This document shows positions 5,569 through 60,900 of a stretch of 64,000 bases of DNA, one piece after another (the stretch's first letter is position 1; each line of letters starts with the position of its first letter). Below the pieces are notes generated by a model that made no database searches, was not told the DNA's origin, and saw nothing but the letters and a program-made list of their open reading frames with translations. The position numbers were made by a program, and so were the translations under genes. Source of the stretch: Octopus sinensis (taxonomy: Eukaryota); contig NC_043003.1 in NCBI RefSeq assembly GCF_006345805.1, positions 75,578,001 through 75,642,000 on the forward strand, written 5' to 3'.

Positions 5569-7918
5569 TCATATGTTGTGGTGTGTGCTATTGCTCCATT
5601 CTAGTTTTCTATTCAGGCTAGGTTTATTTTCTATTATATGTGTAGCTTCTGTAATTTGTCTAATTGTTGCATCTGTTCTATGTGTGGACAATATCTTAAT
5701 CTCTATGTTATTGATTGGTCCCCCGTGTTCCTGTTCGGCGTGTTGGTACAGAATCGATGAGCTCTTACCTTTCTTGAGTTGTCTCCAATGTTCATTCACC
5801 CGCTCTCCAATGCTTCTTGCTGTTTCCCCTACCTATGTTACTGTCTTGTTACTGCATCGTCCCTCTATACATCTTATACTATAGACCACATTTCTGGCTT
5901 TACAGTTTGTTTGTGGGCTAAATCTACATACAGTGCAATAGTTATCCGTACAGAGGGTTCTACTAAAAGGATAGGTTCTACCAATTATAGATCTGATAGG
6001 GTTGCCTGGCTTTTCAACAACCTTAATTCTTAGTTTAAGTTTATCTAGGGTCCTTCTAAAGCGGTACGCCAGTTCACCTCCAGGGGTGGTGTCAACGAAC
6101 ATGACACTCTGGTATTTATGGCTATCATACCAAGAGTTGGCCTTCCCTATTTTCATTTTTGTCCTTTCTATAGTGTTTCATGACTTTTTCCTATAGAGTG
6201 GGCAAATCCCATTCCTATCATTACATAATATATTATCAAATTTCTTCATGGCTCCTTTGTATACTCTGATCCTTTCTTTATGGCTGTAACCTGAGAACTG
6301 CATGCGGTGAATGAAATACTGTATGTGTCTCTTTAATTCTGTAGGCTCGCACATGCGTGACACATTTCTCATTATTCTGAGGAGGTCTGCCATCAAAATA
6401 TTGAATTTGGCATTGCCCGCAATGGCTGAGTTCCGGTGGATCAGGTATTTTGAGGCCATAGGTTTTGCATAGTATGAATGAAGGATTTGGGTTTTATTTT
6501 TCACAATTTCTAGCCAGAGTTCAGTGTCTAGTACTGGTAGTCTATGGTTGGGGTGTTTAGTGGGGTAGTCTATTGTGACCTTAATACTCTGGTGGATGGA
6601 GTTAGCTATTTGCTGGATGCTCTCCATAGTATTAGTTTCTATTACTATATCAACATTACTCTCTTGTGGGGGTGCCTTTACTACTATGTTGATATCATCA
6701 ACATAGCGAGAGTACATGTTTACGAGTATGGATTTCTGCAGTAGGCATTCCTTAAGCCTTCTGTCCCACCATACCATGAAGAGGTTGGCCACATCACCAG
6801 CGACACTAACACCGATGGCTGCCCCCTCGTCCTGGGCATATATTTTATTATTAAATTTAAATGTGTGGCCTTTTAGGGTAACTCTTATACTAGCTCCTAG
6901 TGCATGTGCGATCATTTTCTTTACCTGATGGACATTTGCGGGGCTCCGTATGGCTCTGGTCCATCCGCGCCATCTTTCTATATGTGTCTTCCTAGCCATA
7001 GAAGTAATTGTAGGCGGTCTACCTCTTAAACATCTACTGGGGCAGAAACTACTAAGATTATGTTTATCTAAGTATTCACTATTATATGTCAGTCTAAGTA
7101 GGAGGCCCAGTTCTTCTGTGTCGACATTACAGAACTCCACCTGGCTCTCGTTGATCATCTCCACGCACTTCTCCACTGCCTGCAAAATCTACGTCAATCG
7201 ATGGGTATAGGGATACCACATCCATGCTACCTACTATACATCCTGTCAAGTCACAAGTTTTGTTACAGTCACTGATCCTGCTTAGGAGATCTTCTGTGCT
7301 GTCACACACATCCGGTGACATCCTGATTATAGGGCGTATGATCATTGAGAGGAAGTAGGAGATTCTGTAATTGCTAGCGATATTCGCTCCACAGACTGGT
7401 ATTGTTGGTGGTCCTGCTATAGGGTCAGTAAAATCTTTATGGTCCTTGCGAAGTCCATACAGTGCCGGGATATCATTGTTCCAGGCTTGGAAATTCTTTG
7501 CAGTACGTCTCTGGGGTCCCAGAACAATTGTCCACATCATCATGTGGGCATTGAGGACCTTTTCTCTCTCCTCATGCGCCTGTACAGTTGTTACGTTTGT
7601 ATTGGCGATATGAGGTTGCATTGCCTGGATGTAGTTCGGTAAGCTGTATATTGACATCCTGCCGGACTTATCTGTGGGAAGGCATATCACCTCTCCGTTC
7701 CTCGTGCGCTGAATGAGCTTCTGTAGGCCACATGCAGGTTTAATCCCGAGTTGTTGGGCATCTGTCTTATTCTGTCTCTGTCTCTTAATGTATAATCCTA
7801 AAATCTGTCTAAGTTTGGTCCTAGCTATAGTGAACTGTGCTTCCATGTGGTCATTAGTACGTCTTGGGATGTATACTCTTTTGTTGAAGGGTAATGTTGT
7901 TGGATAAATTCGGTTCAT
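5569..7918 (-). pseudogene. disrupted PLE reverse transcriptase / GIY-YIG endonuclease ORF
   Basis: ORFs 7127..7918, 6178..7185, 5833..6156 and 5569..5799 are consecutive pieces of one protein. It has a frameshift near 7190, a stop at 6178, and TAG in place of Tyr in the YVG motif near 5833. Confidence 0.92.
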
Positions 7919-8129
7919 GCAGTAAGTTTTGTCGCATACGTTGAAGAATTGAGTTGAAGATTAAGATTAATGTAAAAAATAAATATCACTGAAGCAAAAT
8001 AACACCAAATATATATAGTGCGTGTGTTTTTATTGGCTAAACTGGCAATATGACCATTCCGAAATATAACAATATCTGTTTCAACACACGACTTCACATA
8101 AAAAAATTTTGCACAACAAATATTTAAAC

Positions 8130-14764: not shown

Positions 14765-16790
14765 ATTTTAATCTGCAGGATTGTTACAATCACTTGCCGA
14801 GAGACAACCAGCGTCCTGGAGCGAGTGAAGAATAAGATGTTACATTATAACTGAAATCTTGAGGAGCGGATGTGGCAGTATCAAAATATCTTCATAACAC
14901 ATACATTTAAGTGGTTAGGGTTTTTCCTAGGATGTAGCTAGTATTTGTCGGCACAATCTTTTGGATTTCTCTGAGACATGGTTCTACTGGAATCTTATCT
15001 AGATTTTATCATACCTACGGCAACTACACTGATGAGAATAGTTCTTGCTTTAAGATGACACATCTTTTGCATTTCAAATTCGAGGTCCTTCAATTTAATT
15101 AATTTGTCAAATTCCTTTACAGATATATATTTTATCAGTGTGAACACTTACTTATATCTATTACTCTACAAATATTTTCTTCCCTGTCATTAAATAATTA
15201 TGCCTGGTCGAATATCTTGGATATATATATATTGTACGCATGCTTTTACCTTGTGTCGCCAATATGAAACTTTCAGTCCTGAACTTCTCAGGAACAGATG
15301 GATTTTGGCTTGGTCTACATCAGCATTTCGATTTCGAAATATATACTGCGCATGGTGAGGCTTCTGGATCCACCTCTTCTCAATTCTTTCTGCCCGTTCT
15401 TTTTTGTAGTGTTCTTGAACTGTTTTGCTTGTGTTGTAGCAGTGGATTCAGTTTTTTTCATCTATTTTAGGGTTCATGTCAAGTTCCCTTGTGAATTTCT
15501 ATGTTTCCTTAACAAGAGAATGTAATTTTTGTTGCTTTTGAGTTTGCACACAAGCTGCAGCGTCCAGTCCTCTGAACTAGATGAGTACCTCTTTACTGCT
15601 ATTGCGGAGGTCTTCTAGCACTGCTTTACCTGCATCATTCCACTTCTCCCATTATCTCTAAGTAGTTAAAGACGATCATCATGTGCATTTGGGTGCTGCA
15701 TGTTCTTAGATGTTAATAGTTTTGTTGTCTTCTTTTCCAGGCGTTGGAAATCTATAATATTCCAGTTGATGACGTTAAAACTATATTGGACTACTAGAAG
15801 TGTCAGAGTGTTAAAAGATTCGATATAAATTTTGGAGTTCAGTCTTTATTATGTGTCATATTCTCCTGCAATTCCCTTTTCTTATTTTTCCTTCATAGAA
15901 GCATTTTGTTCGTTTGAGAGATGTATCAGTGTCATGCAAAAGAGTAACGGGGAGAAGGAGTCACCTGAAAATACCGCGTTTAACGTTCTGCTGTTCGATT
16001 GGCTAATCCCAATATTAAGGTTTAGAAGGAGACGTGCGTTGCACATGGCAATGCTAAATTGTGAGAATTTGAAGACGACAGTAGAGACCTTATATATTTC
16101 AAAGGCCTTGAGCAGCCAACTATGAGGGACACTATCAAACGATTTTCTGTTCGGTATCGACCACATACGCGGGTTCGAATACTTACGCTGGCAATTCTCT
16201 ACAATTATTTTAGATATGAACAATTGATCTTTGCACCCAACGGAATTCCTGTAACATACTTTTTCAGCCTCTGGAAGGATAGACTTCTGTTCAAGGAAAG
16301 CGTATATTCTGTCAGTTAATACAGATGTGAGGACCTTACATGTGGTGTTGAAACATGTTTCTGATTGGTATTTCTTTTTTTGAGTTGTTGTGTCTTCAGT
16401 TTTTGGTAGAAGGTATGTTGTTCCTTCAGTCAGCCAGGCAGATATTTACTCACGGTTCTGGATGATATCAGTTAGAGATGCAGCGAAATTGTGGTGTACT
16501 TCTGTCAAACAATTCAACTAGAAGATAGGTATTCGGTCCAGTCCTGGGTTTTTCCATTTGTGAGACTTCCTAAGAACACATCTTAACTATTCTATGTCTG
16601 TTGCCTCACACTTATGCTCCTCCAGTCTCACTTCCTCACGCTCTATCCAGTCAGCTTTAGCATTAAATCCTTTTTTGTTGCTTTATATTTTCTTTCGGAA
16701 CTCTTCCATTTCTTCAGTGGTTCCTTTACTTTTGCCAATTTCCCTTCAAAATTCCTTTCCATCCGTCTTGTAGATCTTGTTTTTTTGATA
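14765..16790 (-). mobile_element. decayed R4/Dong-type RLE LINE
   Basis: Minus-strand WKNPGLDRI, KSFDSVPHSWL, FSGDSFSPLLFC and DKLN*LKDLEFEM..HLKART. The 3' UTR matches 62110-62200. (TTA)n lies at the 5' side. Confidence 0.88.
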
Positions 16791-16793
16791 AAA

Positions 16794-16850
<57 letters not shown>

Positions 16851-18330
16851 GTTTTTCCTTCTTTCTTCATATTTTCTTCCGTTTCTCGCGGAGTGTTTTC
16901 CATACACCTAGGGCAGAGAAGGGCATTGTATGCATTCCCAGATTACACGCGCAAATTCACAGATAACATACGTATTTAAAAATGAATAAATAAATGAATT
17001 CATGGATGGATGTTATTTTCACAGCGATAGAGCTCTTCTCAGTACATGTGCCGTTCCAGTTAATACGATTTTTTGCACTTCCTGTAGGGATGGTAAGCCT
17101 GGAATCATTTTCAAATAGGTTTCAGTGCCTTTTTTTATCATTCCTAGAGATCCTACAATCACTGGTACTGTAGTCGCCTTGAGATGCCACAATTTTTCAA
17201 TTTCCATTAGCAGGTCTTGATATTTACTAATCTTGTCAAATTCTTTCGCCTCTATATTGTGATCACAGGGAATACTCATGTCAATTAATAAACACATCCT
17301 TTTTGTCTGATCTTTTATAACGATATCCGGTTTATTGGCTTTTATAGTCCCGTCGGTCTCCACGGGGAAGTCCCATAGAATCAACACATTTTCTCCCTCA
17401 GTCACAGCTTCAGGATGATGTTTATACCATTTGTCAGCGGTTTTGATTTTATAATGTCGACATATTGTCCAATGTAAATACTGGCCGACTCTGTCATGTC
17501 TTGCTTTATATTCTGCAGGTGCTAAGACTCTACACCCTGAGATTAGGTGGTCTATTGTTTCAATCTCATCGTTACAGAAACGGCATTTTGGATCAGCTCC
17601 ATTTTCCATCACATTGGCTTGGTAATTCCGGGTAAATAAGCTTTGGTCTTGAGCAGCTAATATGAATGATAAATTTTCTGTGTTGTTCAACAAACATGTG
17701 ATTTTCAAAATCTGTTTCGACATCATTTTCCGGGCTGTTTTTTCTAGGGTCATATTTTCCTTCTTCTTCAGGATCTTAAGTCGATTCGGCAGATGGTCGC
17801 CTTTCAGTTAATACTTGCGGCCCAACATTCCTCTCCCCAACTTCGTTATTTCTTTCCTGACTTGCATTTAGGTCATTCTCTACCACTTTTTAATAGAGGT
17901 TAATTCTGCATCTGTGAGTCTGGTATTTCTGAAGATATCTCTTCTAACATTTGCTAATCTGTTTTCATCCAGGTTTGGTCTGCTAGCTGGATTCCGGCTC
18001 CTCCAAATTCTGTAGGAGTTTGCGGTGTGTTTTTCTTGGGTTGGCCTACTTAATGCAAAGTAATAAGCATATATTATTTCTTTATATTCTTCCCAGTTCC
18101 ATTTAGTTCTTTTACTTTTTTGATTTTCTGGTCGTTGTGGTGGTGAACTTTGGGGGCTTAATTTGGGACAAATCCCGTTTAAGTGACCTTCCAGGTTCGT
18201 ATTCGGGGAAGATATTCTGCCATTTGAAAATTTTTCGCCATCAGGCTGGCACCCTCCTGACTGGCGCGCTTCCTTTGTACCCATTGGACAAGCGATTCTG
18301 TGTACTGTTAAAAAGTTTCTTTTCAAGTAA
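16851..18330 (-). mobile_element. internally deleted R4/Dong-type LINE (N-terminus joined to CCHC plus RLE; RT missing)
   Basis: 17019..17753 has CRFC..ETIDHLISGC, RHD, ILWDF, KPDIV and IDMSIP. 17880..18326 is homologous to the N-terminus of the 37066 ORF (KW..EEY..I..AY; NRLANVRR). The 3' end abuts (TTA)n. Confidence 0.9.
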
Positions 18331-18553
18331 AGTTGAATTATTATTCAGTTTTCATAATAAAAAATAAAAAAAAAATAAAATAAATAAAATATAAAAAATA
18401 ATAATAATAATAATAAAATTTTTAAAAAGTTTAAATAAAAGATTTAACCACTAATTTTCATATAGGGGCCTCATTTATCATCATTAGTAGCAGAAACTGC
18501 CCCAGTTATTGTAGCAGCAGCAATATCATTGTCAGCAGTTGGAGTGGCAGTGG

Positions 18554-26344: not shown

Positions 26345-26377
<33 letters not shown>

Positions 26378-26787
26378 ATGTATGTATATATGTATGTGTG
26401 TGTGTCTGTATGTGTGTGCGTGTGTATGTGTGTGAGTGTGTGAGTGTGTGTGTATGTATATGTATATATGTATGTGTGAATATATGTGTGTAACTCTGTG
26501 TGTGTGTGTATGTAAATATACATGAGCGTATACGTACATCTCTCTAATATATCTAGCTATTTGTGTGCATTTGTGCAGATATGTAGGAGTCGTACATATA
26601 TCTACTCAATTATCTATACATTTCCCATTTCATTCGAACATAAGATATTTAAGTTTCAAAGAATTTCTAATAACCATGCATCATTAACGGTATTTAATTA
26701 GGTGCAAACTAGAAACTACTTTTCTACTCATATACACGCACACACACAAACACATGTATGTATATATATATGTGTGTGTGTGTGTGT

Positions 26788-26830
<43 letters not shown>

Positions 26831-27203
26831 ATATGTATGTGTGTGTGTCTGTATGTGTGTGCGTGTGTATGTGTGTGAGTGTGTGAGTGTGTGTGTATGT
26901 ATATGTATATATGTATGTGTGAATATATGTGTGTAACTCTGTGTGTGTGTGTATGTAAATATACATGAGCGTATACGTACATCTCTCTAATATATCTAGC
27001 TATTTGTGTGCATTTGTGCAGATATGTAGGAGTCGTACATATATCTACTCAATTATCTATACATTTCCCATTTCATTCGAACATAAGATATTTAAGTTTC
27101 AAAGAATTTCTAATAACCATGCATCATTAACGGTATTTAATTAGGTGCAAACTAGAAACTACTTTTCTACTCATATACACGCACACACACAAACACATGT
27201 ATG

Positions 27204-27235
<32 letters not shown>

Positions 27236-27262
27236 GTGTGTGTGTGTGTGTGTGTGTGTGTG
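26345..27262. repeat. 443-bp direct tandem duplication bounded by (TA)n(GT)n
   Basis: CATGAGCGTATACG at 26521 and 26964; the unique cores look identical by eye. Confidence 0.92.
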
Positions 27263-27276
27263 TTGAGGTGAGTGTT

Positions 27277-28421: not shown

Positions 28422-28502
28422 TTCTAAGAATATTTATACACATATCTATCTACCTATCTATCTATCTATGTATCTCTCTCTCTCTCTCTCTCTAGATATA
28501 TA

Positions 28503-28586
28503 TATTTGCATAGTATTCAAATACAAGGGGCATTTTTCTTGTTTCTACCTCTCTGTCTCTCTAGCTTATTCTTGTGTGTGTATATA

Positions 28587-28665: not shown

Positions 28666-28696
<31 letters not shown>

Positions 28697-28948
28697 AGAG
28701 TAAGCGAGAGAGACAGAGACAGGTAGAAACAAGAAAAATGCCCCTTGTATTTGAATACTATGCAAATATTCGCTTTAAAAATAACTTTTCTTTTAATTTT
28801 TCAAAAAGTTGTTTTCCATAACTACAGTTGAAAAAGTCTTATCGACTGAAACCGGTACTGAAATGCATCTTATAAAATTATCTTAGCATTTTCTACCTTG
28901 ACTTTTCTCCCATATATATCAAGTCGTGTGTTCCTCTTAAACTTTCTA
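28503..28948 (+). mobile_element. short hammerhead-bearing element with an inverted arm (28503-28580 vs 28686-28768) around a central (TA)n
   Basis: ATTTGCATAGTATTCAAATACAAGGGGCATTTTTCTTG is the reverse complement of 28730-28768. The right arm continues through an HHR. Confidence 0.8.
28825..28860 (+). ncRNA. minimal type I hammerhead, U3-A8 core variant
   Basis: CAG-UUGAAAA-AGUC UUAUC GACU-GAAA-CCGG-UA-CUG. Confidence 0.75.
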
Positions 28949-28987
28949 CATACACACATACATACATACATACATACATTCATACCT

Positions 28988-29189
28988 CGTGTGTACCATT
29001 GGCGATTTTTTTCCTCTGTCTTCCCTTCTCTGGATCTTTCCTTCTCCTATGTTTCCGACGAAGAGCTCCGCTCGAAACGTTAAGCTCTTCTTCTTTCCTG
29101 CTTTCCTGAGCGTCCAATAATACTATATTTGCTCCAAGTCCTCGCGTTGTTGTGTTTTTTTGTGCTTTCTTGTTTGGATTAACGTTAAC

Positions 29190-29190
<1 letters not shown>
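28988..29190 (+). mobile_element. short interspersed element with hammerhead-like motif, ending in (TA)n
   Basis: Its 3' end recurs inverted at about 35336-35378, and its layout parallels 1625-1856. Confidence 0.65.
29051..29085 (+). ncRNA. minimal hammerhead motif with extra A, U4>C
   Basis: GUUU-CCGACGAA-GAGC UCC GCUC-GAAA-CG-UU-AAGC. Confidence 0.55.
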
Positions 29191-29249
<59 letters not shown>

Positions 29250-30550
29250 GTGTGTGTGTGTGTGTGTGTGCGTGCGTGTGTGCGTGCGTGTGCGTGTGGT
29301 GTGTTTTACTATGTATCTATATTCCTTGCAATTCCAGATCTCATAGGATTTGCTTGTACCGAAAACTCTGTCAGCATAAAAATATGCTCTTAACTCATCG
29401 ACATAGTAATATAATATATACGAACATGTTTATGATAATCTCATCGCTCATAATCTACCCGCGCATTTTTATTACCTGTGTGTGTGTTGCAGCTATAATA
29501 ACCCTGCTGTAGTTCAAAATCTATGCATCTCAACCTTAAGCTCGAACATTTTCCGCTAGCAAAGACACTAGCACAAGTTTTGTTATTAAATGTTTATGTA
29601 TGCATAATATTGCTGCACTTAAATAGTGTTAGATGTGGAACCGATATATGTTTTATGACTTCGTTTCCTAACATAGCATTTGTAAAGTACGTTACCTTCA
29701 AAGACACAATGGAGTGCTGATTTAATGCTGCAGTATGGGAGTTATTTCAAGCATGTCCCACAGAATCTAGGAAAACAATATTTTCCTGCTCTTTATTCAG
29801 GATATTTTCGTCGGTAATATTTCTATTTTTAATATTTACGCTGTTAGTGTTAAGGCTAACAAAATTTTGTTGGATATAAGACATTTGAAATTTCGAAATG
29901 GGAATGTACTGTGTGAGATTCTTTAATTCTTCCTTCTGTACGAGTAATAGGATTTTCCTCAATTCCATAATTTTTCGAATTGTTAGTTTTATCACACACT
30001 GAGTTAGAAATCTTTACCTCCATAGTTTCTTTTGTTGATATGTATTTAATATTTTTTTTTTTTTTTTTTTCATTATTCTAAAGATTTTTTCTAGGGAAAA
30101 ATGTCATTTATATCATATTTTGTCTTCTGCTACTTTATAGGTAGGAACCAGACTTTGGGCTTTGTCTAGTTTATGGAATAAGTTTTCAGATATTATGGTA
30201 GAAAAAGATTGACAAGTGAGGCTTTGTGTATGAGTATTTCCCTAGTAACCGATTCAGAATACTATGTTATTTACAATTTGGTGTTTTTCTTAAGTATATT
30301 AAGGACAACCTTCGATATGATAGTCGTTACATGTTATCCCTACAGAGTGTTAAACGGGATTACCTCTTTAGTTTCTTAGTATTAGCTGCACCGGTGATGA
30401 TTTATTTTAAAGAATTTTTCATATTCTTCTCATCTGCGATTTTAGACACAGCATTCTCAACAGAAATTTCTGTAAGCTTTTTTCTTCAATCATCTACCTT
30501 GAAGTATATATTAAAATATCTCTCTAAATCTTTGTCTGTACATTTAAGCA

Positions 30551-31125
30551 CATTAATACCTCATTTTACGATGACCCACTTTTCGAGACCCCGGATTTAC
30601 AAGTTTTAGTTTTTCAAGCACAAGATCCAAATCTTGAACAAAGTGCAAAATTTCTACTACCATAACAAATGCGTCTGCGTGTTACCAAGAAATTTATTGA
30701 CAGAGAAAAAATGCTTCTTCTAAGCAAACAACTCTAGACTTGTTTTTTTTTTTTAAATCTCACTACGAGTGTTTGTGAATCAGCGATTGCGTCTACAAAC
30801 ACGATCTACAAACACGAAGTGATGGTGTGCGCGAGTCTAGTGCGAGTGAAACTGAATAAGAAACCGATAATAATAACAATATTTTTTTTTATTTATAAAT
30901 GATCTTGAAATCGTTTTTACTTTACATAAATTATTCTTTTGCGTCTAATATTGTTTTATTACCATTTATTTGCGAGTACTATAAATGTTACAAGTAAATA
31001 TTTTTCTGGGAACGAATTACGATTTACAACATTGCTACCATGTGAAATTATTGCTCTGCTTTAGGAGTTTTCATTTTGCGAGCGGTCTTCGGGAACAAAT
31101 TAACTCGTATATAGAGGCATTACTC
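30551..31125. mobile_element. possible decayed pogo/Tigger-like MITE
   Basis: CATTAATACCTC at left and GAGGCATTACT at right resemble decayed inverted ends. No coding capacity. Confidence 0.35.
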
Positions 31126-31164
31126 TACTTCTACATGATAAATACTTATGTATGAATGTGTATT

Positions 31165-31359
31165 TCTTTTATTCTTTATTTGTTTCAGTTATTTTGACTA
31201 CCACCATTCCGGAGCACCATCTTTAGTCGAACAAATCGACCCTTGGACGTATTGTTTGTACGCCTAGTACTTATTCCGTCGGTTTCTTTTGCCGAGCCGT
31301 TATGTTACAGTACTTAAACACACAAACATCGGTTGTTAAGCGATGGTGAGGGACAAGCA

Positions 31360-31406
<47 letters not shown>

Positions 31407-31448
31407 ACTCACACACACACTCACTCACACACATATATACACGACGGG

Positions 31449-31504
<56 letters not shown>

Positions 31505-31512
31505 TATATGTG

Positions 31513-31551
<39 letters not shown>

Positions 31552-31715
31552 TATGTTATTGGTTTCAAACATTTGACTGCGGCCATGCTGGAGCACCACC
31601 TTTAGTCGAACAAATTGACTCCAGGACTTATTCTTTGTAAGCCTTGTACTTATTCTATCTTTCTCTTTACCCAAACTACTACGGCTCTCAAGTAATGGTG
31701 GAGGAGACAAACACA
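31165..31715. mobile_element. two related SINE-like copies separated by microsatellite
   Basis: GGAGCACCA.CTTTAGTCGAACAAAT.GAC..GGAC.TATT.TTTGTA.GCCT.GTACTTATTC occurs at about 31210 and about 31590. Confidence 0.65.
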
Positions 31716-31724
31716 GATATACAA

Positions 31725-31813
<89 letters not shown>

Positions 31814-31815
<2 letters not shown>

Positions 31816-32088
31816 CAAGGAAAAATTATAAAAAGGCAGAACGCTATATTGAATGTAAATTTTAATGAAAATGGGTGTATCGAAAATTTTTTTAAATTAA
31901 AAAAAAAATATATATACATTAACTCAAACCGGTTTTCGTCGCAATGCGACTTTTCAAGAATTGTAAGGTGAAAAGAAAATGTTTATATAATTGGGGGGAG
32001 GGAAGAAAATTACATTGCTTTTCGCAAAAAAATAATAAACATATACAAAAATTAAAAAATAGCTACACCGATACATTGTAAAGTCTTT
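31814..32088 (-). mobile_element. about 275-bp AT-rich hammerhead-bearing insert between two (TA)n tracts
   Basis: Bounded by (TA)n; contains the HHR at 31921-31962. Confidence 0.65.
31921..31962 (-). ncRNA. minimal type I hammerhead, U3-A8 core variant
   Basis: AAUUC-UUGAAAA-GUCGC AUU GCGAC-GAAA-ACCGGU-UU-GAGUU. Stems I and II are 5 bp each and stem III is palindromic. Confidence 0.75.
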
Positions 32089-32370
32089 TATATATATATA
32101 TATATATATAAGTTTAACAATTAAGGATAATCTCTTAATAAGGGATCTTAACAAGAAATTATCGGGTAGCTAGCGTGAAAACCTCATAAAAGAAAAGAAT
32201 CCGAAAATAATTTTTTTCTTTTGAACAAATTAATTATATCTATATTGTATAGAGGGCATTATTACACATAAATGCCTCACACTAGGAGGGACAAAGTCAT
32301 TACTACCAAAAATTATACTAATCATACCCAAATGCAGTTTTTCAAAGCAAGACATTTAAAAATGAATTAT

Positions 32371-32426
32371 GTTCTGTATCACCGTGATTTCACATACAAC
32401 TTGCGTCTAATGATCGTCAGCAGAAC
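32371..32426 (-). ncRNA. type I hammerhead ribozyme (array B, left arm)
   Basis: Reverse complement of the 33115-33170 motif. Confidence 0.85.
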
Positions 32427-33114
32427 TGATTCTGAATACATCATAAATAAACTACCAACCTTACGTAGCGGAGACGAACAGACAACTGCTCACTCCGGCC
32501 AAGCACATGGAATGTTTATAAATCATATATCCGGTAAATGGCGGGCTTTTTACGAACTGCATGTCGGGTAATGAAAAGTATTTCGGAATAAGTTTAACAA
32601 TTAAGGATAATCTCTTAATAAGGGATCTTAACAAGAAATTATCGGGTAGCTAGCGTGAAAACCTCATAAAAGAAAAGAATCCGAAAATAATTTTTTTCTT
32701 TTGAACAAATTAATTATATCTATATTGTATAGATCATGATTAGTATAATTTTTGGTAGTAATGACTTTGTCCCTCCTAGTGTGAGGCATTTATGTGTAAT
32801 AATGCCCTCTATACAATATAGATATAATTAATTTGTTCAAAAGAAAACAATTATTTTCGGATTCTTTTCTTTTATGAGGTTTTCACGCTAGCTACCCGAT
32901 AATTTCTTGTTAAGATCCCTTATTAAGAGATTATCCTTAATTGTTAAACTTATTCCGAAATACTTTTCATTACCCGACATGCAGTTCGTAAAAAGCCCGC
33001 CATTTACCGGATATATGATTTATAAACATTCCATGTGCTTGGCCGGAGTGAGCAGTTGTCTGTTCGTCTCCGCTACGTAAGGTTGGTAGTTTATTTATGA
33101 TGTATTCAGAATCA

Positions 33115-33170
33115 GTTCTGCTGACGATCATTAGACGCAAGTTGTATGTGAAATCACGGTGATACAGAAC
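33115..33170 (+). ncRNA. type I hammerhead ribozyme (array B)
   Basis: GUUCUG-CUGACGA-U CAU UA GAC GCAA GUU GU AUG U-GAAA-UCA CGG UGA-UA-CAGAAC. 6-bp stem I, AUA cleavage triplet, GNRA loop II. Confidence 0.85.
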
Positions 33171-33594
33171 ATAATTCATTTTTAAATGTCTTGCTTTGAA
33201 AAACTGCATTTGGGTATGATTAGTATAATTTTTGGTAGTAATGACTTTGTCCCTCCTAGTGTGAGGCATTTATGTGTAATAATGCCCTCTATACAATATA
33301 GATATAATTAATTTGTTCAAAAGAAAAAAATTATTTTCGGATTCTTTTCTTTTATGAGGTTTTCACGCTAGCTACCCGATAATTTCTTGTTAAGATCCCT
33401 TATTAAGAGATTATCCTTAATTGTTAAACTTATTCCGAAATACTTTTCATTACCCGACATGCAGTTCGTAAAAAGCCCGCCATTTACCGGATATATGATT
33501 TATAAACATTCCATGTGCTTGGCCGGAGTGAGCAGTTGTCTGTTCGTCTCCGCTACGTAAGGTTGGTAGTTTATTTATGATGTATTCAGAATCA

Positions 33595-33650
33595 GTTCTG
33601 CTGACGATCATTAGACGCAAGTTGTATGTGAAATCACGGTGATACAGAAC
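33595..33650 (+). ncRNA. type I hammerhead ribozyme (array B)
   Basis: Identical motif 480 bp downstream. Confidence 0.85.
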
Positions 33651-34073
33651 ATAATTCATTTTTAAATGTCTTGCTTTGAAAAACTGCATTTGGGTATGAT
33701 TAGTATAATTTTTGGTAGTAATGACTTTGTCCCTCCTAGTGTGAGGCATTTATGTGTAATAATGCCCTCTATACAATATAGATATAATTAATTTGTTCAA
33801 AAGAAAAAAATTATTTTCGGATTCTTTTCTTTTATGAGGTTTTCACGCTAGCTACCCGATAATTTCTTGTTAAGATCCCTTATTAAGAGATTATCCTTAA
33901 TTGTTAAACTTATTCCGAAATACTTTTCATTACCCGACATGCAGTTCGTAAAAAGCCCGCCATTTACCGGATATATGATTATAAACATTCCATGTGCTTG
34001 GCCGGAGTGAGCAGTTGTCTGTTCGTCTCCGCTACGTAAGGTTGGTAGTTTATTTATGATGTATTCAGAATCA

Positions 34074-34129
34074 GTTCTGCTGACGATCATTAGACGCAAG
34101 TTGTATGTGAAATCACGGTGATACAGAAC
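34074..34129 (+). ncRNA. type I hammerhead ribozyme (array B)
   Basis: Identical motif 479 bp downstream (1-nt deletion near 33980). Confidence 0.85.
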
Positions 34130-34258
34130 ATAATTCATTTTTAAATGTCTTGCTTTGAAAAACTGCATTTGGGTATGATTAGTATAATTTTTGGTAGTAA
34201 TGACTTTGTCCCTCCTAGTGTGAGGCATTTATGTGTAATAATGCCCTCTATACAATAT

Positions 34259-34294
<36 letters not shown>

Positions 34295-34296
<2 letters not shown>

Positions 34297-34410
34297 GACA
34301 GGATTCTTTCCATTTCAGTCTACTAGATCCACTCACAAGGCTTTCGTCGACCCTAGGATATTTGTAGAAGACACTTGCCCAAAGTGCCACGCAATGAGAC
34401 TGAACACAAG
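34295..34410 (-). mobile_element. SINE fragment
   Basis: TCCACTCACAAGGCTTT..TAGAAGACACTTGCCCAAAGTGCCACGC is a recognisable SINE body in reverse orientation. Confidence 0.55.
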
Positions 34411-35378
34411 AAGCAGAAATTCAACAAAAAATAAGATACTGATAAATAGACGATAACATAACAAATGAGAAAGTAGACAAAAACTAGATACATGGACCAT
34501 CCACAGCAGATTTTCTATTCAATCTGTTTCCGAAAAGTCCAAGCAATTTTGCACTTTTTTACCACTCGAATCAGGTAAGCACCAGAGCTTTAACTTAAAA
34601 GCATTACGCTTCTGGGAAAAGCAAACGATGCATACAAGAACGGAAACAAAAAAGAACACAAGAACAGGAAAGCTAGAAGTATACACATACAACAGACGAA
34701 CGTCCTTCGGCTATACAACAAAAGGAAAACAATTGTACATTTACAAATAAATGAATAACAGAAAAAAGTCCTTCGACTATCAGGCGTACGTAACGTGATG
34801 AAGTAATAATACAGGTGAAACAGAAAAAGAATTATACTTATAGAGTAGACATACACCTTTCGGCTATACAACAAATAGAAAATAATTGTACAATAGTACA
34901 AACGTAGAAGGCTGGTTGAGAGGAGAAATGGAACGTCTTAGCAGACGAAGCGGAAGAACCGAAAACGTGACCGGCCTGGATGACGGCTGGTCGTAAAAGG
35001 ACAACAATGCATTGGTCGGGCAGCGATCACGTGGTTGGAGAGGGAAACAGTTGTAGAGGGAAAAGGGATCAAAGTTTAAGAGGGAGGGGAAAAGAGGGCA
35101 AACGAATAATAGAGAGGGAAAATGAAATCAAGAGTGGGGAACGAGAGGGAGGGAGAGAGAGAAAGACAGACAGAGAGAGAGAAAGACAGACAGACAGACA
35201 GACAGAAACAGAAAAGGAAGAAACAAAGGAGTAAAGCGGGGAATGAAAGAGGTGAGAGTCGTATACAAATATATAAATACATATATATATATATATATAT
35301 ATGTAAGCAAATATATAGTTATATATGTATATAAATAGTTAATCCAAACAAGAAAGCACAACAAAACACAACAACGCG

Positions 35379-35413
<35 letters not shown>

Positions 35414-35414
<1 letters not shown>

Positions 35415-35761
35415 TTAAAAAAAGGAGATGTGGAACATGAGTTGTGTTATATAAAAAAAGGAAATGAAGAAAATGCTGACAAAATAATTTAAGTAAGGGA
35501 GAGTGTATTTAATTAGGTGAAAGTTCTTTACCGGTTGCGCATTTGTTATGCTTATCAAAAGATATTTTTTAAGAGAGATACAGTTCCTTTCTGATAGATT
35601 TTTTCTCAGATAAGAGAAGAAAATCTATCAGAAAGGAACTGTATCTCTCTTAAAAAATATCTTTTGATAAGCATAACAAATGCGCAACCGGTAAAGAACT
35701 TTCACCTAATTAAATAAACTCTCCCTTACTTAAATTATTTTGTCAGCATTTTCTTCATTTC

Positions 35762-35770
<9 letters not shown>
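35414..35770. mobile_element. near-perfect palindromic insert (arms about 35457-35602 and 35620-35766, 17-nt spacer) in (TA)n, each arm with an HHR-like motif
   Basis: Arms are reverse complements with about 2 differences; the left arm extends about 40 bp further. Confidence 0.88.
35660..35697 (+). ncRNA. minimal hammerhead-like motif, U3-A8 variant with GAAA>GCAA (mirror copy near 35525-35562, minus strand)
   Basis: UCUU-UUGAUAA-GCAU AACAA AUGC-GCAA-CCGG-UA-AAGA. Confidence 0.6.
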
Positions 35771-35796
<26 letters not shown>

Positions 35797-36353
35797 ATAC
35801 ATATATAAATACATACACACGTACACACCTATATCAATGTGTGTATGTGTGTGTATGATAAATTTGTATTTTGTGAAATCTTGTTGTATTCCTTATTAGC
35901 AATCGCTACAAATTTCCAAATATATATTTACGTTAAAACTGGTATATAATGTAGTGATTACATGTAGTCCGCAGGTGCAGGATATCTTGATATATACCTT
36001 TGACAGAATGAATTGGCTTGAGTCGCAAAGTAAAACAGAATACAAAATGAAGATTTCATTATAAGTTTAAATTCTTTTGCAATTATTTCAATAACAACTC
36101 ATTAATTGGATTCTTACACATAGAATACTACGCAAGACTTGTGTGTGTAAATTAAACATATTTTAAATGAGTAGGATTTTCACTTTAATTAGATATTATT
36201 TAAGACATATGTCACATAATATGCGAATGCATATTTTCCGTTGCTTACTTCGTTAGAGGTAGCAAAACAACAATCAGAAGGACCAATGGTAATGACAACA
36301 ATAGTAGTAACATCAGTAGCAACTATAATAGAATATATAAAAATATATAATAT

Positions 36354-36764: not shown

Positions 36765-39700
36765 CGGGGACGTTTAAGATGTAAGAAGGAAAATTCAGAG
36801 GAACACCGGGGACGTTTAAGATGTAAGAAGGAAAATTCAGAGGTACACCGGGGACGTTTTAAGATGTAAGAAGGAAAATTCAGAGCTCCGAAATCTATCC
36901 ACAAACATCGAAAACAAGGACATCCTATGGAGCCAAAGTTTTACTAACAAAGAATTGGACTGTATCCGAGTAAGTAATACTAATTGAAATTTATTACTAT
37001 TTTCGAAACGAAATGATGTATTTTGACTCGATATCATCTCCGCCTCTAACGCAACACATGTAAACATGCGTGGAACATCACGATCATCTCCGACCCCAAA
37101 CACCATGTACAAAGGAACTACGAAGAAATTAAATGCCACCGATACTATTCAACCCAAGAATAACAATCGAGCGGTACGTACATTAAACTTACAACAAAAA
37201 ATGTACGAAAAACTACACGTGCGAAATAATGTGACAACAGAAATAAACGGACCGGTACCCTACGAAAATGACGACCGTCAAAATAATGGGCCGGACGTTG
37301 TACCTCATGTCCCGCAAATAAAACCCCAAAGACGTAAATGGACACGTGAGGAATACATTTCTATCTTACACGCATACTTCACAGCAGTACTCTACCCAAA
37401 AAATGAAAGTACAACAAAACATACATATAAAATATGGAAGGAAAATAATAGAGATATAGACTTGGATAAAGCAATGAATCCTAATAAATTAGCTAACGTA
37501 CGAAGATACATTCTCAACACAAAAAAAATATCAGAAATAGAAATAGAACACCTAAAAGAAAACATACGCCAGGAAAATGTAGATAGAAGCCACACAACAA
37601 TGCCCAATAATATAAATACTGAAACTGTAAAACACGAAGACAAACGCAACATTCTCAACAAACACGATGTAAACAACGAAGGGGAGCCTATTGGTTATGA
37701 TAATATAAAAAATAAAATAATCAAAGAACTGAAAACCACAGAGCTCAAAATGGACCACCGACCATACCTCCCAAGAATCAAAATAAACAAAATAACAACA
37801 CCTATTATACACAGCATAAACCTAGCCATCACTGAACTGATAGCCACTGAATCAAAAAAAAGTGATATCACTGAGCTAAATAACCTAATATACGCAGCAG
37901 CCACTGCAGCCACAAAAGAAGCTGGATACTCACCCAAACCCGCCCAAACAGGAGTACCACCACCCAAACAAACCCTGTGGATAAATAACATCCAAAGCAA
38001 AATATAAAAAAATTAGAAAAGACCTGTCGATTCTTAATGAAATCAGCAAACAATCAACGCTACTGAGCAACAAAAAGAGAACACAATTACTCCGCAAATA
38101 TAACATCACAGAGAAAGATTTGCCTGAAATAAAAGAAAAGCTGAAGCAAGATATACTTGCCAAAGCACAAAGGATCCGCCGGTACAAGAAACGCCAACGC
38201 TTCTTTGAAGAAAACAAAAAGTTCAACTCCAACCCCAAAAAGTTCTACCAAGAACTGGGAAAAAATAAAATAGAAGTCACTGCAGCACCAACGGCAGAAG
38301 AATTGGAAGAATTCTGGAGAGAAATATGGTCGGCGAACGAACCAGCAAAAAAAAAGAGTATCAGAATAACAAACTCGGCATCTGAACAACTTTGGACCCC
38401 CATAACAACTGAAGAGGTCACCCAGGCACTGCAAAGACTAAGCAACTGGAAGGCACCTGGGCATGACAAGATCCCCAACTTCTGGTTGAAATATCTAACA
38501 GGAATGCACAAAAAGCTGGCTGAAAACTTTAACAACGTACTAGTAGAGCCAGAGACAATGCCTGAATGGCTCACGAAGGGGAAAACCATCTTAATACCCA
38601 AATCAAATGAAACAGAAAAACCAGAAAACTACAGACCAATAACCTGCCTCCCTACTATGTTCAAGGCATTTACTGCAGTGATATCACAAAGGCTGAACAA
38701 GCACCTGGACGAAAACAAACTGTTCCCAGAAGAGCAGAAAGGATGCCGCAAAGGCTCATATGGCTGTAAAGATCAACTAATGATTAATAAAGCCATAACT
38801 GAAAACAGCCACATAAAGAAGAAAGGCCTCAGTATGGCCTGGATTGACTACAAAAAGGCGACATCCCCATTAGAAGAGGAATATTCCAGGGAGACACGCT
38901 CTCTCCACTCCTTTTCTGCTTGGCACTGTCACCTCTATCTGATATGCTAAATAGAACTGGATCCGGATATAAATTTTACGGCAAAACGATCAGCCACCTT
39001 TTATATATGGATGACCTAAAACTATACGCTGCAAATGACAAACAGCTGGAAACACTATTAAAGACAGTTCATGGATTTACCAAAGAAATAGATATGAAAT
39101 TTGGATTTAAAAAATGCGCCAAAGTAGCCATGAAAAGAGGAAAACTAGTTAAGAGTAACAACACCACACTAGATAAAACCAATGAAATAAAAGAATTAGA
39201 CCAAAGCCAAACTTACAACTACTTAGGAATCCATGAACTAGATAAGACACAACACACACAAATGAAAGAGAAAATAAAAAAAAGAATATTATAGACGAGT
39301 TAGATCAAATCTAAACACAGAGCTCAATGCTAAAAACAAGATAATAGGTATCAACACTTTAGCTGTCCCAGTTATAAGTTACAGCTACAATATCCTTAAC
39401 TGGACACGAAATGAACTGACCAAAATAGATAGGAAAACATGAAAAATACTGACAGGATCTAGGATGCATCACCCAAAATCTGACATAGAAAGACTATATA
39501 TACAACGTATAGAAGGTGGTAGAGGCCTTATACAGCTGGAAAACTACTATAAAATAACCACCATAGGACTGCAAAAATATCTACTTCAGAAGGAAGGAAA
39601 ACTGATCCAGATAGCGGCAAAACACGAGCAAAACAAAAAACTGTTCTCAGTATTTAAGGAAGCTGACAAATACAAACAAGAAATCATACCACCTAATAAA

Positions 39701-40658
39701 CAGGAAGAAGAAGAAGAAGATGAAGAAACAACAAAAGCTATAAAACAAATGAAATCCAAACTAAAAATAGAACAGCAACGAACCATGATAAAACGATGGC
39801 AAGAAAAGCCCCTTCATGGTAAATACTGGACTAAACTAAACACAAAAGAAATAGACAAAGAAAAATCCCAGCAATGGTTGAGAAGCTCAGGACTCAAAGC
39901 AGAAACAGAGGGATTTTTAATTGCAGCACAAGACCAAAGCCTCCCCACCAGAAATTACCAAAAACATGTAATGAAAAGAAATATTACAAGTAACTGCAGA
40001 ATATGTGGAGATGGACAAGAAACAATAAATCATATTATCTCTAGCTGCCCAGTCCTGGCTAAGAAGGAATATATTCACATACATGACAGAGTTGGAACCT
40101 ACATACATTGGAAGCTATGCCAACATTATGGAATAACAACAGAAAAAAGATGGTATAGGCACACACCAGAAAAGGTCACAGAAAACGAGAAAGCAACCAT
40201 ACTCTGGGATATGCTGATGCACACAGATAGAGAAATTAAGGCCAACATACCAGATATAGTTGTCAGAGATCATGAAGAAAAAAAATGCTTTCTAATTGAT
40301 GTATCAATACCGGCTGATGACAACGTGTCTCTAAAAGAAATGGAGAAACTCTCAAAATACAAAGACCTGGAAACAGAGGTAACTAGAATGTGGAATCTGA
40401 AAACAGAAACAATTCCTATCATAGTAGGTGCATTAGGCATGATAAAAAAATATTCAGACAAATACATAACAAAAACACCAGGACTTACAAACACATATAC
40501 CATACAGAAAATTGCACTACTAGGCACTGCACACATCCTACGCAGAGCACTTTCCATACAATAGCCATCAGAGCATCACAACAAATCACAGCACATACCC
40601 AAGGCACACAGAGCTGCGCTCGGTAGTGAAGTGAAAGCACGCTATAAAAATAAAACTA

Positions 40659-57926: not shown

Positions 57927-60900
57927 GTCATTGCACAGCTTCTAACACTGTACTACAGTGTCAGTTGTTCACTACCAGTGAACTAGGGTAACACCTCTTA
58001 TTTTTCGAGCACCTTCCGGACTATTCGAGCGGTTCCAAGCAGTGCTGTTTTCTGCAAGTGCTCCACCCATATTGAAGCACCTATTTGTTCCACGTTCTTC
58101 TCAAGATTTTTGCTCACCGATCCCAGGGCTCCGACAATCATTGGTACTACTGCAACCTTCTCCATCGACCACAACTGCTTAACCTCCAAAGCAAACCTGC
58201 CATGTCTCTCAAAATTTCTTTCTTTCTTACCGCATACCTTGTTGTTAGCTTGGCATGCTATAATCTATGATCCAGCATAGTTTGTTTTCTTTCTCAATTA
58301 AGACTATTTCTGGCTTCCTATTCTCTATCTCATGGTCGCACTGGATCATACAATCCCATTCGGATCTTTGCATTTCTATTTTCGACGATACCTTTTGGTT
58401 TGTGGTCGAACCAATTTTTTCCATACTTGTTGCAGACTCTCCAATGGACAAGCCTGGGTATATTGTCATGGCGTCTCTTATATTCCTTTTTGAGTAGTGG
58501 CGTACATTGGCTGATAATATGCCATACGGTTTCACCGTTTTGTCCACAGATTCTGCACTTATCACTTTCTGCTGTGTTGTCTATTCTGTATTTTATGTAG
58601 TTTGTTCTTAATGCTTGCTCTAGGGCAGCACACATCAGAGACTCCGCTTCCGGTTTTAAATCACTTTTTGTCATCCACATCCATCTTTTTTCTCTATCTG
58701 TCTTATCTTCAACATCCTTATGAAATTGACCATGCATTTTTTTCTTTGCTCACCTATTTTCATTCGTTTTCAATTTCTTATCTAGTGCTTTATCTTTGAC
58801 ATCTTTCATCCTACACAAGCCTGACCTTCCTACCTCTAACAATAGCGCTTCTGTGACATTTTTTACGTACCATGCTATGTTGTTTTCTTCTGCTCTAGTA
58901 CTGTGTTTGTATACAATAAGTTCTCACCCCACTTTTTCTTGGTACATACGGTCTGCCTGTGTCACTTTTTGGGTGGAATCACCCATATCTGGTTAGCAAC
59001 TTCCTTGTCTTTCAGTCTAAGCTATTTCGTTCGTCTACTGTCTACGGGATTACCCTTGCTCCATATCTAAGGAGTGAAACTGCCCAGGTGTTGATAGCTT
59101 CAATCTTATTTCATCTGTTTAATTTTGACTTAAGAATCAGTCTAAGCCTGCACAAGTACTCCACCTTAAATTTTTCTGTCATTTCTTTCTCCATCAATTT
59201 ATCCATTTCCAATATCTCCATGTACTTATAGTTCCTCTATTCTATATGCTTCATAACCACTCCCGATGATATCGCAAGCCCTTCCATACATTTAATTTTG
59301 TCCCTCTTCAAGATTAACACACCACTCTCTTTTAGTCCGAAATCCGTTCTGATATCAGTATTGAAAGTATACACCGTATCAACGACGAAACTGACTCGGG
59401 ACTCATCTTTACCATAAAGTTTGAGATGATCTATGATTAACAAGTGGTTGATATTTTGTTGACGGCTCTTGAATACATGCTCAGCCTTTGCTTTCCTCAG
59501 AATCAGTGTCAATGGCATCATGCACAGTACAAAGAGCCGGTGGGACAGGTGCCTCTCCTGATTTCTATTGTCCATAAACTTCTTCCATATGCCGTCAGTT
59601 CTACCCTCCACTTCGCCAAACTTTTTCCAAGCAATCTTTCAACATACGATGCAATACCAAATAGGTTCATACACTCCATAATCCAAGAATATGGGATCAT
59701 ATTGTATGCGTTGCGATAATCGATTCATGACATGGCTAAGTCATTTCTCCTCCTCTTGCAGTCTCTAAGTAAAATTTTGTTACCAGGATTTGATCCTTGG
59801 TGCCTCTGCACTTACACTTGCAACCCTTCTGCTCATGTGGCAGAACTCTATTTTTACCAGATGTTCATATATTGACTCTGCGACTATTCCAGTCAATAAT
59901 TTCCACATAAGAGGTAAGCAGGATACCGGCCTGTACTTGTCTACCGTATTACCTTTCACGATGTTTTTCAAGCACATCACTGTCCTACCCGGTGTCAACC
60001 ACACTGGTGTTACTTGGTCGGCATTTAACATAGTGATGCGTTGTGCAGATATTCGTGCATGACATTCGCCAAAACATTTGATCCTGTAGCCATCGGGTCC
60101 CGCGGGCTTCCAGTGGCTCTTTTTTTTTTGCTGGTCTCCTTAAATTCCCAGACTGAAATGAATATTTCCATTTATTATGCACAGTCTGATGTATGTTTAA
60201 GTTCTTGCAACTATTCAACATCCTTTTTGGTCTCTTTGTCGTTGCTCCTGATGTCACTCCAAAACCGTTGACATTCAAATGTCATCTGGTATCAACTTTG
60301 CATCTTTACACTTTCCATTTATTTCTTTATAGAATCTCTTCTGATCCAGTCTGAACAAACTATTCTGCTGGTTTCCCTTTGTTCTTTTGTCGTATCTTAC
60401 TATCTTTGATTTCTTTTCAAAGATGCGCTGTTTCAGTCCTCTATTACCACTTACTTTCAATATCATACTTCCTGTTTAGTGCCCTGTACTTTTGTTCACT
60501 TTTAATTTCCCCTTCCTCTTTTAGGTCTAACATAGAAATGTCCTTCTAGAGCATGTCTAACACCGCCTGTATTCTTTTTGTCAATATGGATCTTTACTTT
60601 TGTCACTCCTATTATGTTTCTTTTTCTTGACCTCAACACACACATTTTCTCTAACGACTGTACTTGCTGCTTTAAACAAATTATTTGTTTCTGTGATGTT
60701 TTGTTCTGATTTATTTTATAATTTCATTCACACTTTTCGTTTCTTGGTTCAATTTCCACCGGTCAACCTTTTTAAGGGTGCAAATAATATCGCTATCGTT
60801 CTCCTATAGCCTTGCCTTTATCCTGTTGTACATTGCCTTTTACTCATCTGTCATGTCACCATTAGTTTTACTATCGTCTTCCATATTATCTATATGTCTC

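What the first reader, a model, noticed from the sequence alone, without database searches (positions are those of the whole stretch)
28825..35697. Three unrelated minimal hammerheads with the compensatory U3-A8 core (UUGANAA)
Seen: 28825-28860 (UUGAAAA), 31921-31962 minus (UUGAAAA) and 35660-35697 (UUGAUAA). Each has different but fully paired stems I and II and a CCGG-centred palindromic stem III. Known: C3-G8 is a tertiary Watson-Crick pair in the active HHR, and U3-A8 swaps retain activity but are uncommon in nature. Inference: the double change recurring in three families argues for selection rather than decay. CUGANGA-based searches would miss this class.
Basis: partly seen in the sequence, partly recalled or inferred. 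Interest (0 to 1): 0.82.

Follow-up and report, generated by a model that had tools for sequence, protein, structure and literature searches.

The report
Penelope-element minimal hammerheads, U3-A8 core
The three motifs are real copies of the small hammerhead RNA motif carried by Penelope-like jumping genes; their U-A core pair is the normal state of thousands of related copies in this genome and is already in print, their cutting activity is untested, and one of the three families has likely lost it.

Summary
All three motifs exist as described, beyond chance (0 of 100 shuffles reach three), except that site 3 reads GCAA, not GAAA (A13C). Each lies in a 5'-truncated 3' end of a Penelope-like retroelement family. 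Longer copies carry a GIY-YIG (and RT) ORF 0.3-0.9 kb upstream on the same strand. U3-A8 is the family state (30/30, 29/30, 30/30 copies) and common genome-wide: 7,560 U3-A8 matches against 159 C3-G8, 141 U3-G8 and 305 C3-A8 in the CCGG frame, so this is not decay. But the families are related (51-71% protein identity, one clade), so one inherited swap explains all three. Natural U3-A8 hammerheads were published in 2011 and, in Penelope elements, in 2014 (~1,300 hits); this scan also noted them in other genomes. Two side results are fresher. Family 3 amplified to over 1,300 copies with A13C and mostly a 2-bp stem I. A 360-bp retrozyme-like family outside the window holds C3-G8, C3-A8 and U3-A8 subfamilies. 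Verdict: new members of a known kind; interest 0.3.

The parts
28825..28860 (+). Site 1: type I minimal hammerhead of family F1. Core UUGAAAA 28828-28834 (U3 28828, A8 28833), stem II 28835-38/28844-47 (A-U at 10.1-11.1), G12-A13-A14 28848-50, palindrome ACCGGU 28851-56, A17 28857. Predicted cut between 28857 and 28858.
28690..28979 (+). 5'-truncated 3' end (pLTR) of Penelope-like family F1, between (TA)n and (TACA)n
   Evidence: covered by at least 5 of 29 other copies; longer copies L007 and L029 carry ORF remnants of the element upstream
28502..28579 (-). Short inverted copy of the F1 fragment across a (TA)n tract; it does not include the hammerhead
29051..29085 (+). A decayed copy of an abundant canonical family.
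31921..31962 (-). Site 2: type I minimal hammerhead of family F2. Core 31957-31951, stem II 31950-46/31942-38, GAA 31937-35, palindrome AACCGGUU 31934-27, U17 31926. Predicted cut between 31926 and 31925.
31733..32088 (-). 5'-truncated 3' end of Penelope-like family F2, ending in (TA)n 31733-31813
   Evidence: continuous homology into GIY-YIG ORFs in L046, L055, L060, L034, L035
35660..35697 (+). Site 3: hammerhead-shaped motif of family F3 with U3-A8 and A13C. Core 35664-70, stem II 35671-74/35680-83, G12-C13-A14 35684-86, ACCGGU 35687-92, A17 35693. It is the minority form with a 4-bp stem I.
35525..35562 (-). Identical inverted twin of site 3
35379..35819 (.). Fold-back insertion of two 5'-truncated F3 ends (arms 35456-35602 and 35620-35766, 99% complementary) between (TA)n tracts; 91-94% identical to the 3' end of the near-full element L170

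Best explanation
The three motifs are type I minimal hammerheads sitting in 5'-truncated 3' ends of three related Penelope-like retroelement families, whose U3-A8 core pair was likely inherited from one ancestor and likely kept by selection on the parent elements. In a parent element transcribed as a partial tandem, two such motifs would pair through the CCGG palindrome to build stem III and would slowly cut after position 17, trimming the element RNA (inferred from the published dimer model; not tested). The window copies are solitary or lie on opposite strands and are probably inert passengers. Family 3 has added A13C and mostly a 2-bp stem I, and is probably catalytically weak or dead although the family kept spreading.
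For: Shown. (1) The motifs exist beyond chance. (2) Each is one copy of a dispersed family (2,042, 1,405 and 1,070 first-look candidates). (3) U3 and A8 together in 29 of 30 F1 copies (U3 30/30, A8 29/30), 29 of 30 F2 and 30 of 30 F3 among the best-scoring copies. In position-ordered lists: F1 95 U3A8, 3 U3G8, 1 C3A8, 1 G3A8 and 0 C3G8 in the first 100 of 410; F3 U3 in 97 and A8 in 100 of the first 100 of 943; both hand counts. (4) Pfam GIY-YIG in longer copies of all three families (L007; L046, L060, L034, L035; L065; 6 of 54 ORFs scanned), on the hammerhead's strand and upstream of it. RT plus GIY-YIG in near-full F3 (L169, L170) and in unbroken 780-aa ORFs of sister family F4. (5) Protein identity F1b-F3 71%, F2-F3 51%, F2-F1b 52%. 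F1 and F3 are sisters (96/95) and F1-F5 form one group (100/100) in an 18-row tree. (6) Across these families stems I and II change sequence while staying paired, and U3-U4-G5-A6-N7-A8-A9 stays fixed (15 natural copies parsed; F5, F6 and F4b parsed poorly). (7) Genome counts in one frame: U3A8 7,560 (control 67), C3G8 159 (30), U3G8 141 (39), C3A8 305 (40). (8) The monomer stem III is unstable, while the palindromes form intermolecular helices of -8.3 to -10.1 kcal/mol. Literature: PMC4209133, PMC3088659, PMC8557442.
Against: No cleavage or transcript-end data. Published PLE minimal hammerheads cut poorly even as dimers (PMC4209133). In one saturation mutagenesis of a type III hammerhead only G3-C8, not U3-A8, rescued the pair (PMC9901934). 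In +-30 nt context stem I has pairing probability near 0 at all three sites, and site 1 prefers a competing fold (stem II probability 0.1). F1 lacks the G10.1-C11.1 pair, and none of the three has the bulged nucleotide after A9 that is typical of published motifs. The tree is unrooted and built from partial endonuclease regions. A more distant family (O2) is also U3-A8 while its neighbour O1 is C3-G8, so the number of swaps among PLEs is not fixed. Copy counts reflect amplification, not independent events.
Confidence: 0.8

Rival explanations
1. The U3-A8 motifs are kept for their fold or pairing (dimerisation, RT binding, a 3'-end signal) rather than for cutting; catalysis is negligible.
For: F3 reached at least 1,341 copies with C13. 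Of the first 100, 95 have two extra A's that leave a 2-bp stem I next to the core, 4 have the window's form and 1 another. U3-A8 was low-activity in one mutagenesis. Naiad PLEs spread without canonical hammerheads, and the authors raise the idea that hammerheads merely parasitise PLEs (PMC8557442).
Against: The catalytic-core letters U4, G5, A6, A9, G12, A14, A15.1 and U16.1 stay fixed across families about 50% identical in protein while stems turn over. Non-A13 cores are concentrated in F3 (about 75 of the first 100 of 2,018, hand count).
Confidence: 0.13
2. One reading: the double change arose independently in three unrelated families.
For: The stems differ and the three window copies share almost no DNA similarity. 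The 3-8 pair has switched more than once in this genome: a retrozyme-like family holds both cores, and O1 (C3-G8) sits beside O2 (U3-A8).
Against: F1, F2 and F3 fall in one clade in which every family with a readable hammerhead (F1, F1b, F2, F2b, F3, F4, F5) is U3-A8. One event is the simplest reading.
Confidence: 0.05
3. The motifs are chance matches or copies that decayed individually from C3-G8.
For: The genome is AT-rich (GC 24-43%), and C-to-T and G-to-A are common changes.
Against: 0 of 100 shuffles reach the count. The families are U3-A8 throughout. Single variants are 1.4% and 3.5% of the double after control subtraction.
Confidence: 0.01

Closest known systems
U3-A8 minimal hammerheads of Cercyon Penelope-like elements in Schistosoma mansoni (Cervera and De la Pena 2014, PMC4209133)
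   Same: Type I topology, short stems, palindromic helix III, location in pLTRs, mostly solitary truncated copies plus opposite-strand pairs, and the same U3-A8 covariation (about 1,300 hits there).
   Different: Here stem II is 4-5 bp rather than 7-8, there is no bulge after A9, helix III carries a CCGG palindrome (as in the Drosophila, rotifer and shrimp types), F1 has A-U at 10.1-11.1, the copy number is at least 7,560, and F3 adds A13C.
Natural U3-A8 core variants (Perreault et al. 2011, PMC3088659)
   Same: The same compensatory pair, reported in several natural hammerheads and cited there as active in vitro.
   Different: Those were scattered examples; here it is the fixed state of a retroelement clade in minimal, dimer-type motifs.
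Neptune/Nematis-type EN+ Penelope-like elements (as described in PMC8557442)
   Same: [quoted passage not shown]
   Different: Placement in Neptune versus Nematis was not tested against reference sequences.
Non-LTR retrozymes (PMC7229834; bioRxiv 10.64898/2026.07.22.740005)
   Same: Type I hammerhead with a palindromic stem III. The 360-bp family seen outside the window fits the tandem size.
   Different: The three window sites are PLE ends, not short tandem monomers, and have only 3-5 bp of stem I.

Membership tests
Minimal hammerheads of metazoan PLEs | Type I three-way junction with paired stems I and II | tested here: met
   for F3 the majority form has only 2 bp next to the core
Minimal hammerheads of metazoan PLEs | Core C/U3-U4-G5-A6-N7-G/A8-A9 with a Watson-Crick 3-8 pair | tested here: met
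   U3-A8 at all three sites and family-wide
Minimal hammerheads of metazoan PLEs | G12-A13-A14, A15.1-U16.1, H17 (sites 1 and 2) | tested here: met
   site 2 has U17
Minimal hammerheads of metazoan PLEs | G12-A13-A14 (site 3, family F3) | tested here: not met
   C13 in 99 of the first 100 of 943 matches, none with A; 1 of 15 with A in the extra-T subset. Site 3 is a homologue of the motif, not a consensus member.
Minimal hammerheads of metazoan PLEs | Short palindromic helix III suited to dimer formation | tested here: met
   ACCGGU and AACCGGUU; intermolecular helix in cofolding
Minimal hammerheads of metazoan PLEs | Located in the pLTR of an RT/GIY-YIG element | tested here: met
   (through longer copies; no such ORF remains at the window sites)
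Minimal hammerheads of metazoan PLEs | G10.1-C11.1 pair and an unpaired nucleotide after A9 (frequent, not obligatory) | tested here: inconclusive
   G-C in F2 and F3, A-U in F1; no bulge in any of the three
Minimal hammerheads of metazoan PLEs | Self-cleavage as a dimer | not testable with these tools
   no assay; only contigs were available
EN+ Penelope-like elements, Neptune/Nematis type | RT with a C-terminal GIY-YIG endonuclease | tested here: met
   Pfam RVT_1 then GIY-YIG in L169/L170 (F3), L167 (F2b), L171/L172
EN+ Penelope-like elements, Neptune/Nematis type | CX2-5CxxC linker and a cysteine pair inside the GIY-YIG core | tested here: met
   read from translations; the two histidines of CCHH were not mapped
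EN+ Penelope-like elements, Neptune/Nematis type | Phylogenetic placement against reference Neptune, Nematis and Penelope/Poseidon RTs | not tested
   no reference sequences were fetched
Non-LTR retrozymes | Tandem 150-400-nt monomers without an ORF, each with a hammerhead (window sites) | tested here: not met
   window copies are solitary or inverted PLE ends

The most novel reading that the evidence does not exclude
Family 3 carries a working hammerhead with a triple-changed core (U3, A8, C13): in the U3-A8 background the 'invariant' A13 is dispensable, which would be a new natural core class fixed in over 1,300 copies of a recently mobile element. If it is dead instead, family 3 is a natural demonstration that a canonical Penelope-like element spreads without its ribozyme.
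Probability: 0.15. Interest if true: 0.6.

Novelty: new member of a known kind. Interest (0 to 1): 0.3.

Why it matters
The U3-A8 class is known, so the finding mainly adds scale: about a third of the minimal hammerheads counted in this genome would be missed by CUGANGA descriptors and by Rfam. The by-products make an open question testable, namely whether PLE hammerheads are needed for transposition. Sister families F1 (intact U3-A8 core) and F3 (U3-A8 plus A13C) are a natural pair. The 360-bp family offers C3-G8, C3-A8 and U3-A8 versions of one ribozyme on near-identical scaffolds, a possible natural path of a compensatory swap through a mismatch intermediate.

Tried and rejected
Rfam at E<=1: no hammerhead family; 144 matches, nearly all miRNA or snoRNA models on microsatellites and hairpins. 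Pfam on 23 window ORFs: RT and zf-RVT fragments elsewhere, no GIY-YIG; tblastn with family endonucleases found nothing in the window. The first F3 pattern had one T too many and caught only 15 copies; it was redone. Expression: no RNA holder listed; only contigs, with kind guessed. Laying four runs on L170:4300-5650 showed contigs across the hammerhead region and no listed difference in the core, but 19 difference rows were hidden and contigs show no ends, so this is no evidence on cleavage or expression. The first protein tree (54 rows) finished only in quick mode; an 18-row careful tree replaced it. The first retrozyme tree was distorted by truncated copies; 19 of 54 rows were dropped for departing by more than 13%. 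The core tally failed as coded, so O2 cores were read by eye (22 of 22 U3/A8). My first guess that the C3-G8 family with the GAGG stem was a PLE sister family: no GIY-YIG within 1.5 kb in 30 loci. Papers not held: Lunse et al. 2017, Przybilski and Hammann 2007, Nelson and Uhlenbeck 2008. PMC11014351 and PMC7151607 gave nothing on A13 variants. Searches 'hammerhead + A13C' and 'hammerhead, C3-G8, A13, mutation' returned 0 papers; this is a weak blank, because many hammerhead papers are not in the library.
Full report
1. Observation. The three motifs are at the stated places. A type I descriptor with positions 3, 8 and 13 free gave 5 hits in 64 kb: the three sites, an identical inverted twin of site 3 (35562-35525, minus) and one non-palindromic hit at 14701. 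In 100 block-wise dinucleotide shuffles, U3-A8 hits with a palindromic stem III averaged 0.01, with a maximum of 1. A relaxed scan adds a fourth motif at 29051-29085 with C3-G8 and U4C. Rfam reported no hammerhead among 144 matches at E<=1. The window lies on contig C7 of a 2.7-Gb genome rich in microsatellites; I did not determine the organism.

2. What the sites belong to. Each is one copy of a dispersed repeat (2,042, 1,405 and 1,070 first-look candidates, 40 scored each, 30 loci taken each). The shared part is usually a few hundred bases next to simple repeats, often with an inverted partner. Of 54 ORFs scanned from these loci (out of 288 listed), 6 hit Pfam GIY-YIG: L007 (F1), L046, L060, L034, L035 (F2) and L065 (F3). 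Homology runs without a break from those ORFs to the hammerhead, which lies on the same strand about 0.3-0.9 kb downstream. Near-full F3 elements (L169, L170) have RT followed by GIY-YIG, and sister family F4 has unbroken 780-aa ORFs with a U3-A8 hammerhead behind them. The translations show a C-x4-C-xx-C linker and a cysteine pair within the GIY-YIG core, features described for Neptune and Nematis elements together with 5' truncation, inverted copies and (TA)n targets (PMC8557442, passages). The window sites are therefore truncated 3' ends (pLTRs) of Penelope-like elements.

3. Family state or decay. Among the 30 best copies, U3 and A8 occur together in 29 (F1; one U3-G8), 29 (F2; one C3-A8) and 30 (F3); these are chosen by likeness to the query. 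Position-ordered lists with 3 and 8 left free give, by hand count, 95 U3-A8, 3 U3-G8, 1 C3-A8, 1 G3-A8 and no C3-G8 in the first 100 of 410 F1 matches, and U3 in 97 and A8 in 100 of the first 100 of 943 F3 matches. In a generic frame ending in CCGGU the genome holds 7,560 U3-A8 (control 67), 159 C3-G8 (30), 141 U3-G8 (39) and 305 C3-A8 (40) matches; these patterns do not enforce stem pairing. After control subtraction the singles are 1.4% and 3.5% of the double, as expected from decay after insertion, and C3-G8 is 36 times above independent decay, mostly from one other family. Canonical C3-G8 motifs with an ACGU palindrome number 17,847 (control 1,036). U3-A8 is thus roughly a third of what I counted; other palindromes were not counted.

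4. Related, not unrelated. The three window copies share almost no DNA similarity, but their proteins do: F1b-F3 71%, F2-F3 51%, F2-F1b 52%. In an 18-row tree of thumb and endonuclease regions, F1 and F3 are sisters (96/95), F4 joins them (92/87), and F2 and F5 complete a group set off at 100/100 (one search agrees). Every family in it with a readable hammerhead is U3-A8, so one inherited swap explains the three sites. Outside the group, O1 (L175, L102) is C3-G8 and O2 (L111, L227, L228; 22 of 22 motifs read by eye) is U3-A8. The tree is unrooted, so one gain, two gains, or a gain and a reversion all remain possible. An independent switch is visible in a 360-bp retrozyme-like family outside the window: in the first 100 of 277 matches, 58 U3-A8, 35 C3-G8, 5 C3-A8, 1 U3-G8 and 1 A3-A8 (hand count). 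With positions 3 and 8 masked, 35 of 54 copies form three subfamilies (bootstrap 100, 95, 94), with C3-A8 lying between the other two (93% to C3-G8, 91% to U3-A8, 89% between those). The direction is not established.

5. Mechanism. Shown: the anatomy, the location, the family states, and by computation that the monomer hammerhead shape is not the most stable fold while two copies pair through the palindrome (-8.3 to -10.1 kcal/mol). Inferred from the published dimer model (PMC4209133, parts 1-2 of 4 read, supplements not seen; PMC6765202, passages): in a partial-tandem transcript two motifs swap stem III strands and cut after position 17, trimming or circularising the element RNA, slowly and perhaps with protein help. 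The window copies have no same-strand partner of their own family and are probably inert. Against strong activity: stem I is not populated in local context and site 1 has a competing fold; published PLE motifs cut poorly; and in a saturation mutagenesis of a type III hammerhead only the G3-C8 swap rescued (PMC9901934, passages), whereas Perreault et al. cite 3-8 covariants as active (PMC3088659, section 8). That A13 substitutions strongly lower the rate is my recall; the papers were not held.

6. Family 3. C13 is fixed: 99 of the first 100 of 943, none with A, and 1 of 15 with A in a subset. Non-A13 cores in the generic frame are mostly F3 (about 75 of the first 100 of 2,018). Of the first 100 of 1,341 matches, 95 have two extra A's after position 17 that leave 2 bp of stem I beside the core, 4 have the window's 4-bp form and 1 another. 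The best copies are 94-99% identical to the window's, and near-full elements carry the same motif. The likeliest reading is a weakened or dead ribozyme in a lineage that kept spreading, which fits the remark that Naiad elements lack hammerheads and still proliferate. A tolerated new core is the less likely alternative (0.15); a 2-bp helix I is known from D. virilis.

7. Known or new. U3-A8 covariation in nature was reported in 2011 and in PLE minimal hammerheads in 2014, where a dedicated descriptor gave about 1,300 hits. Earlier notes of this scan record the same variant in other genomes (AI notes, seen after I had reached my reading, not counted as support); none exist for this genome. I found no paper on a natural A13C family, but Lunse et al. 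2017 and the supplements of the two papers, which may list such variants, were not seen. Verdict: real motifs, a known variant, new members; the inference of three independent events is not supported. Interest 0.3, carried mostly by family 3 and the three-state retrozyme-like family.

Noticed in passing
L132-L164 and L179-L208 (e.g. L163:2404-3160, L162:2334-2723, L159:2312-2858): A 360-bp tandem and inverted retrozyme-like family with one hammerhead scaffold in three core states: U3-A8 58, C3-G8 35 and C3-A8 5 of the first 100 of 277 matches. They form three subfamilies, with C3-A8 intermediate. C7-G8 is a CpG, which may have fed the G8A step.
   Followed up: partly
window 35660-35697; L169, L170: Family-wide A13C plus a mostly 2-bp stem I in a young family of over 1,300 copies. 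The change also creates a second palindrome (UGCGCA) just before ACCGGU.
   Followed up: partly
window 29051-29085 (+): A fourth minimal hammerhead with a C3-G8 core and U4C, from an abundant canonical family, about 190 nt downstream of site 1 on the same strand but with a different palindrome.
   Followed up: partly
L024:1317-1345 (-) and L173:1626-1654 (-): Two F1-type copies with a C3-G8 core; in L024 it is the inverted neighbour of a U3-A8 copy. Possibly an older or reverted subfamily.
   Followed up: no
L171:1253-4200, L172:1032-4390: Penelope-like elements with unbroken 780-aa RT-GIY-YIG ORFs, a second upstream basic ORF, and a U3-A8 hammerhead with an ACAUGU palindrome.
   Followed up: partly
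L111:292-333 (-), L209-L228; L175 3' UTR: Distant PLE families with a mismatch at the base of stem II: O2 is U3-A8 with an AGCGCU palindrome (1,718 candidates); O1 is C3-G8 with an AGUACU palindrome.
   Followed up: partly
window 32108-34265: A 480-bp unit repeated 3.2 times at 99% identity, with 100% complementary inverted copies at 32108-32733, directly beside the F2 fragment. It could be a complex insertion or an assembly artefact.
   Followed up: no
window 37027-40564 (+), 15882-18344 (-), 5833-7960 (-), 58330-58749 (-): Broken LINE-type elements with RVT_1 and zf-RVT hits.
   Followed up: no
window 26359-27263: A 443-bp tandem duplication at 99% identity.
   Followed up: no
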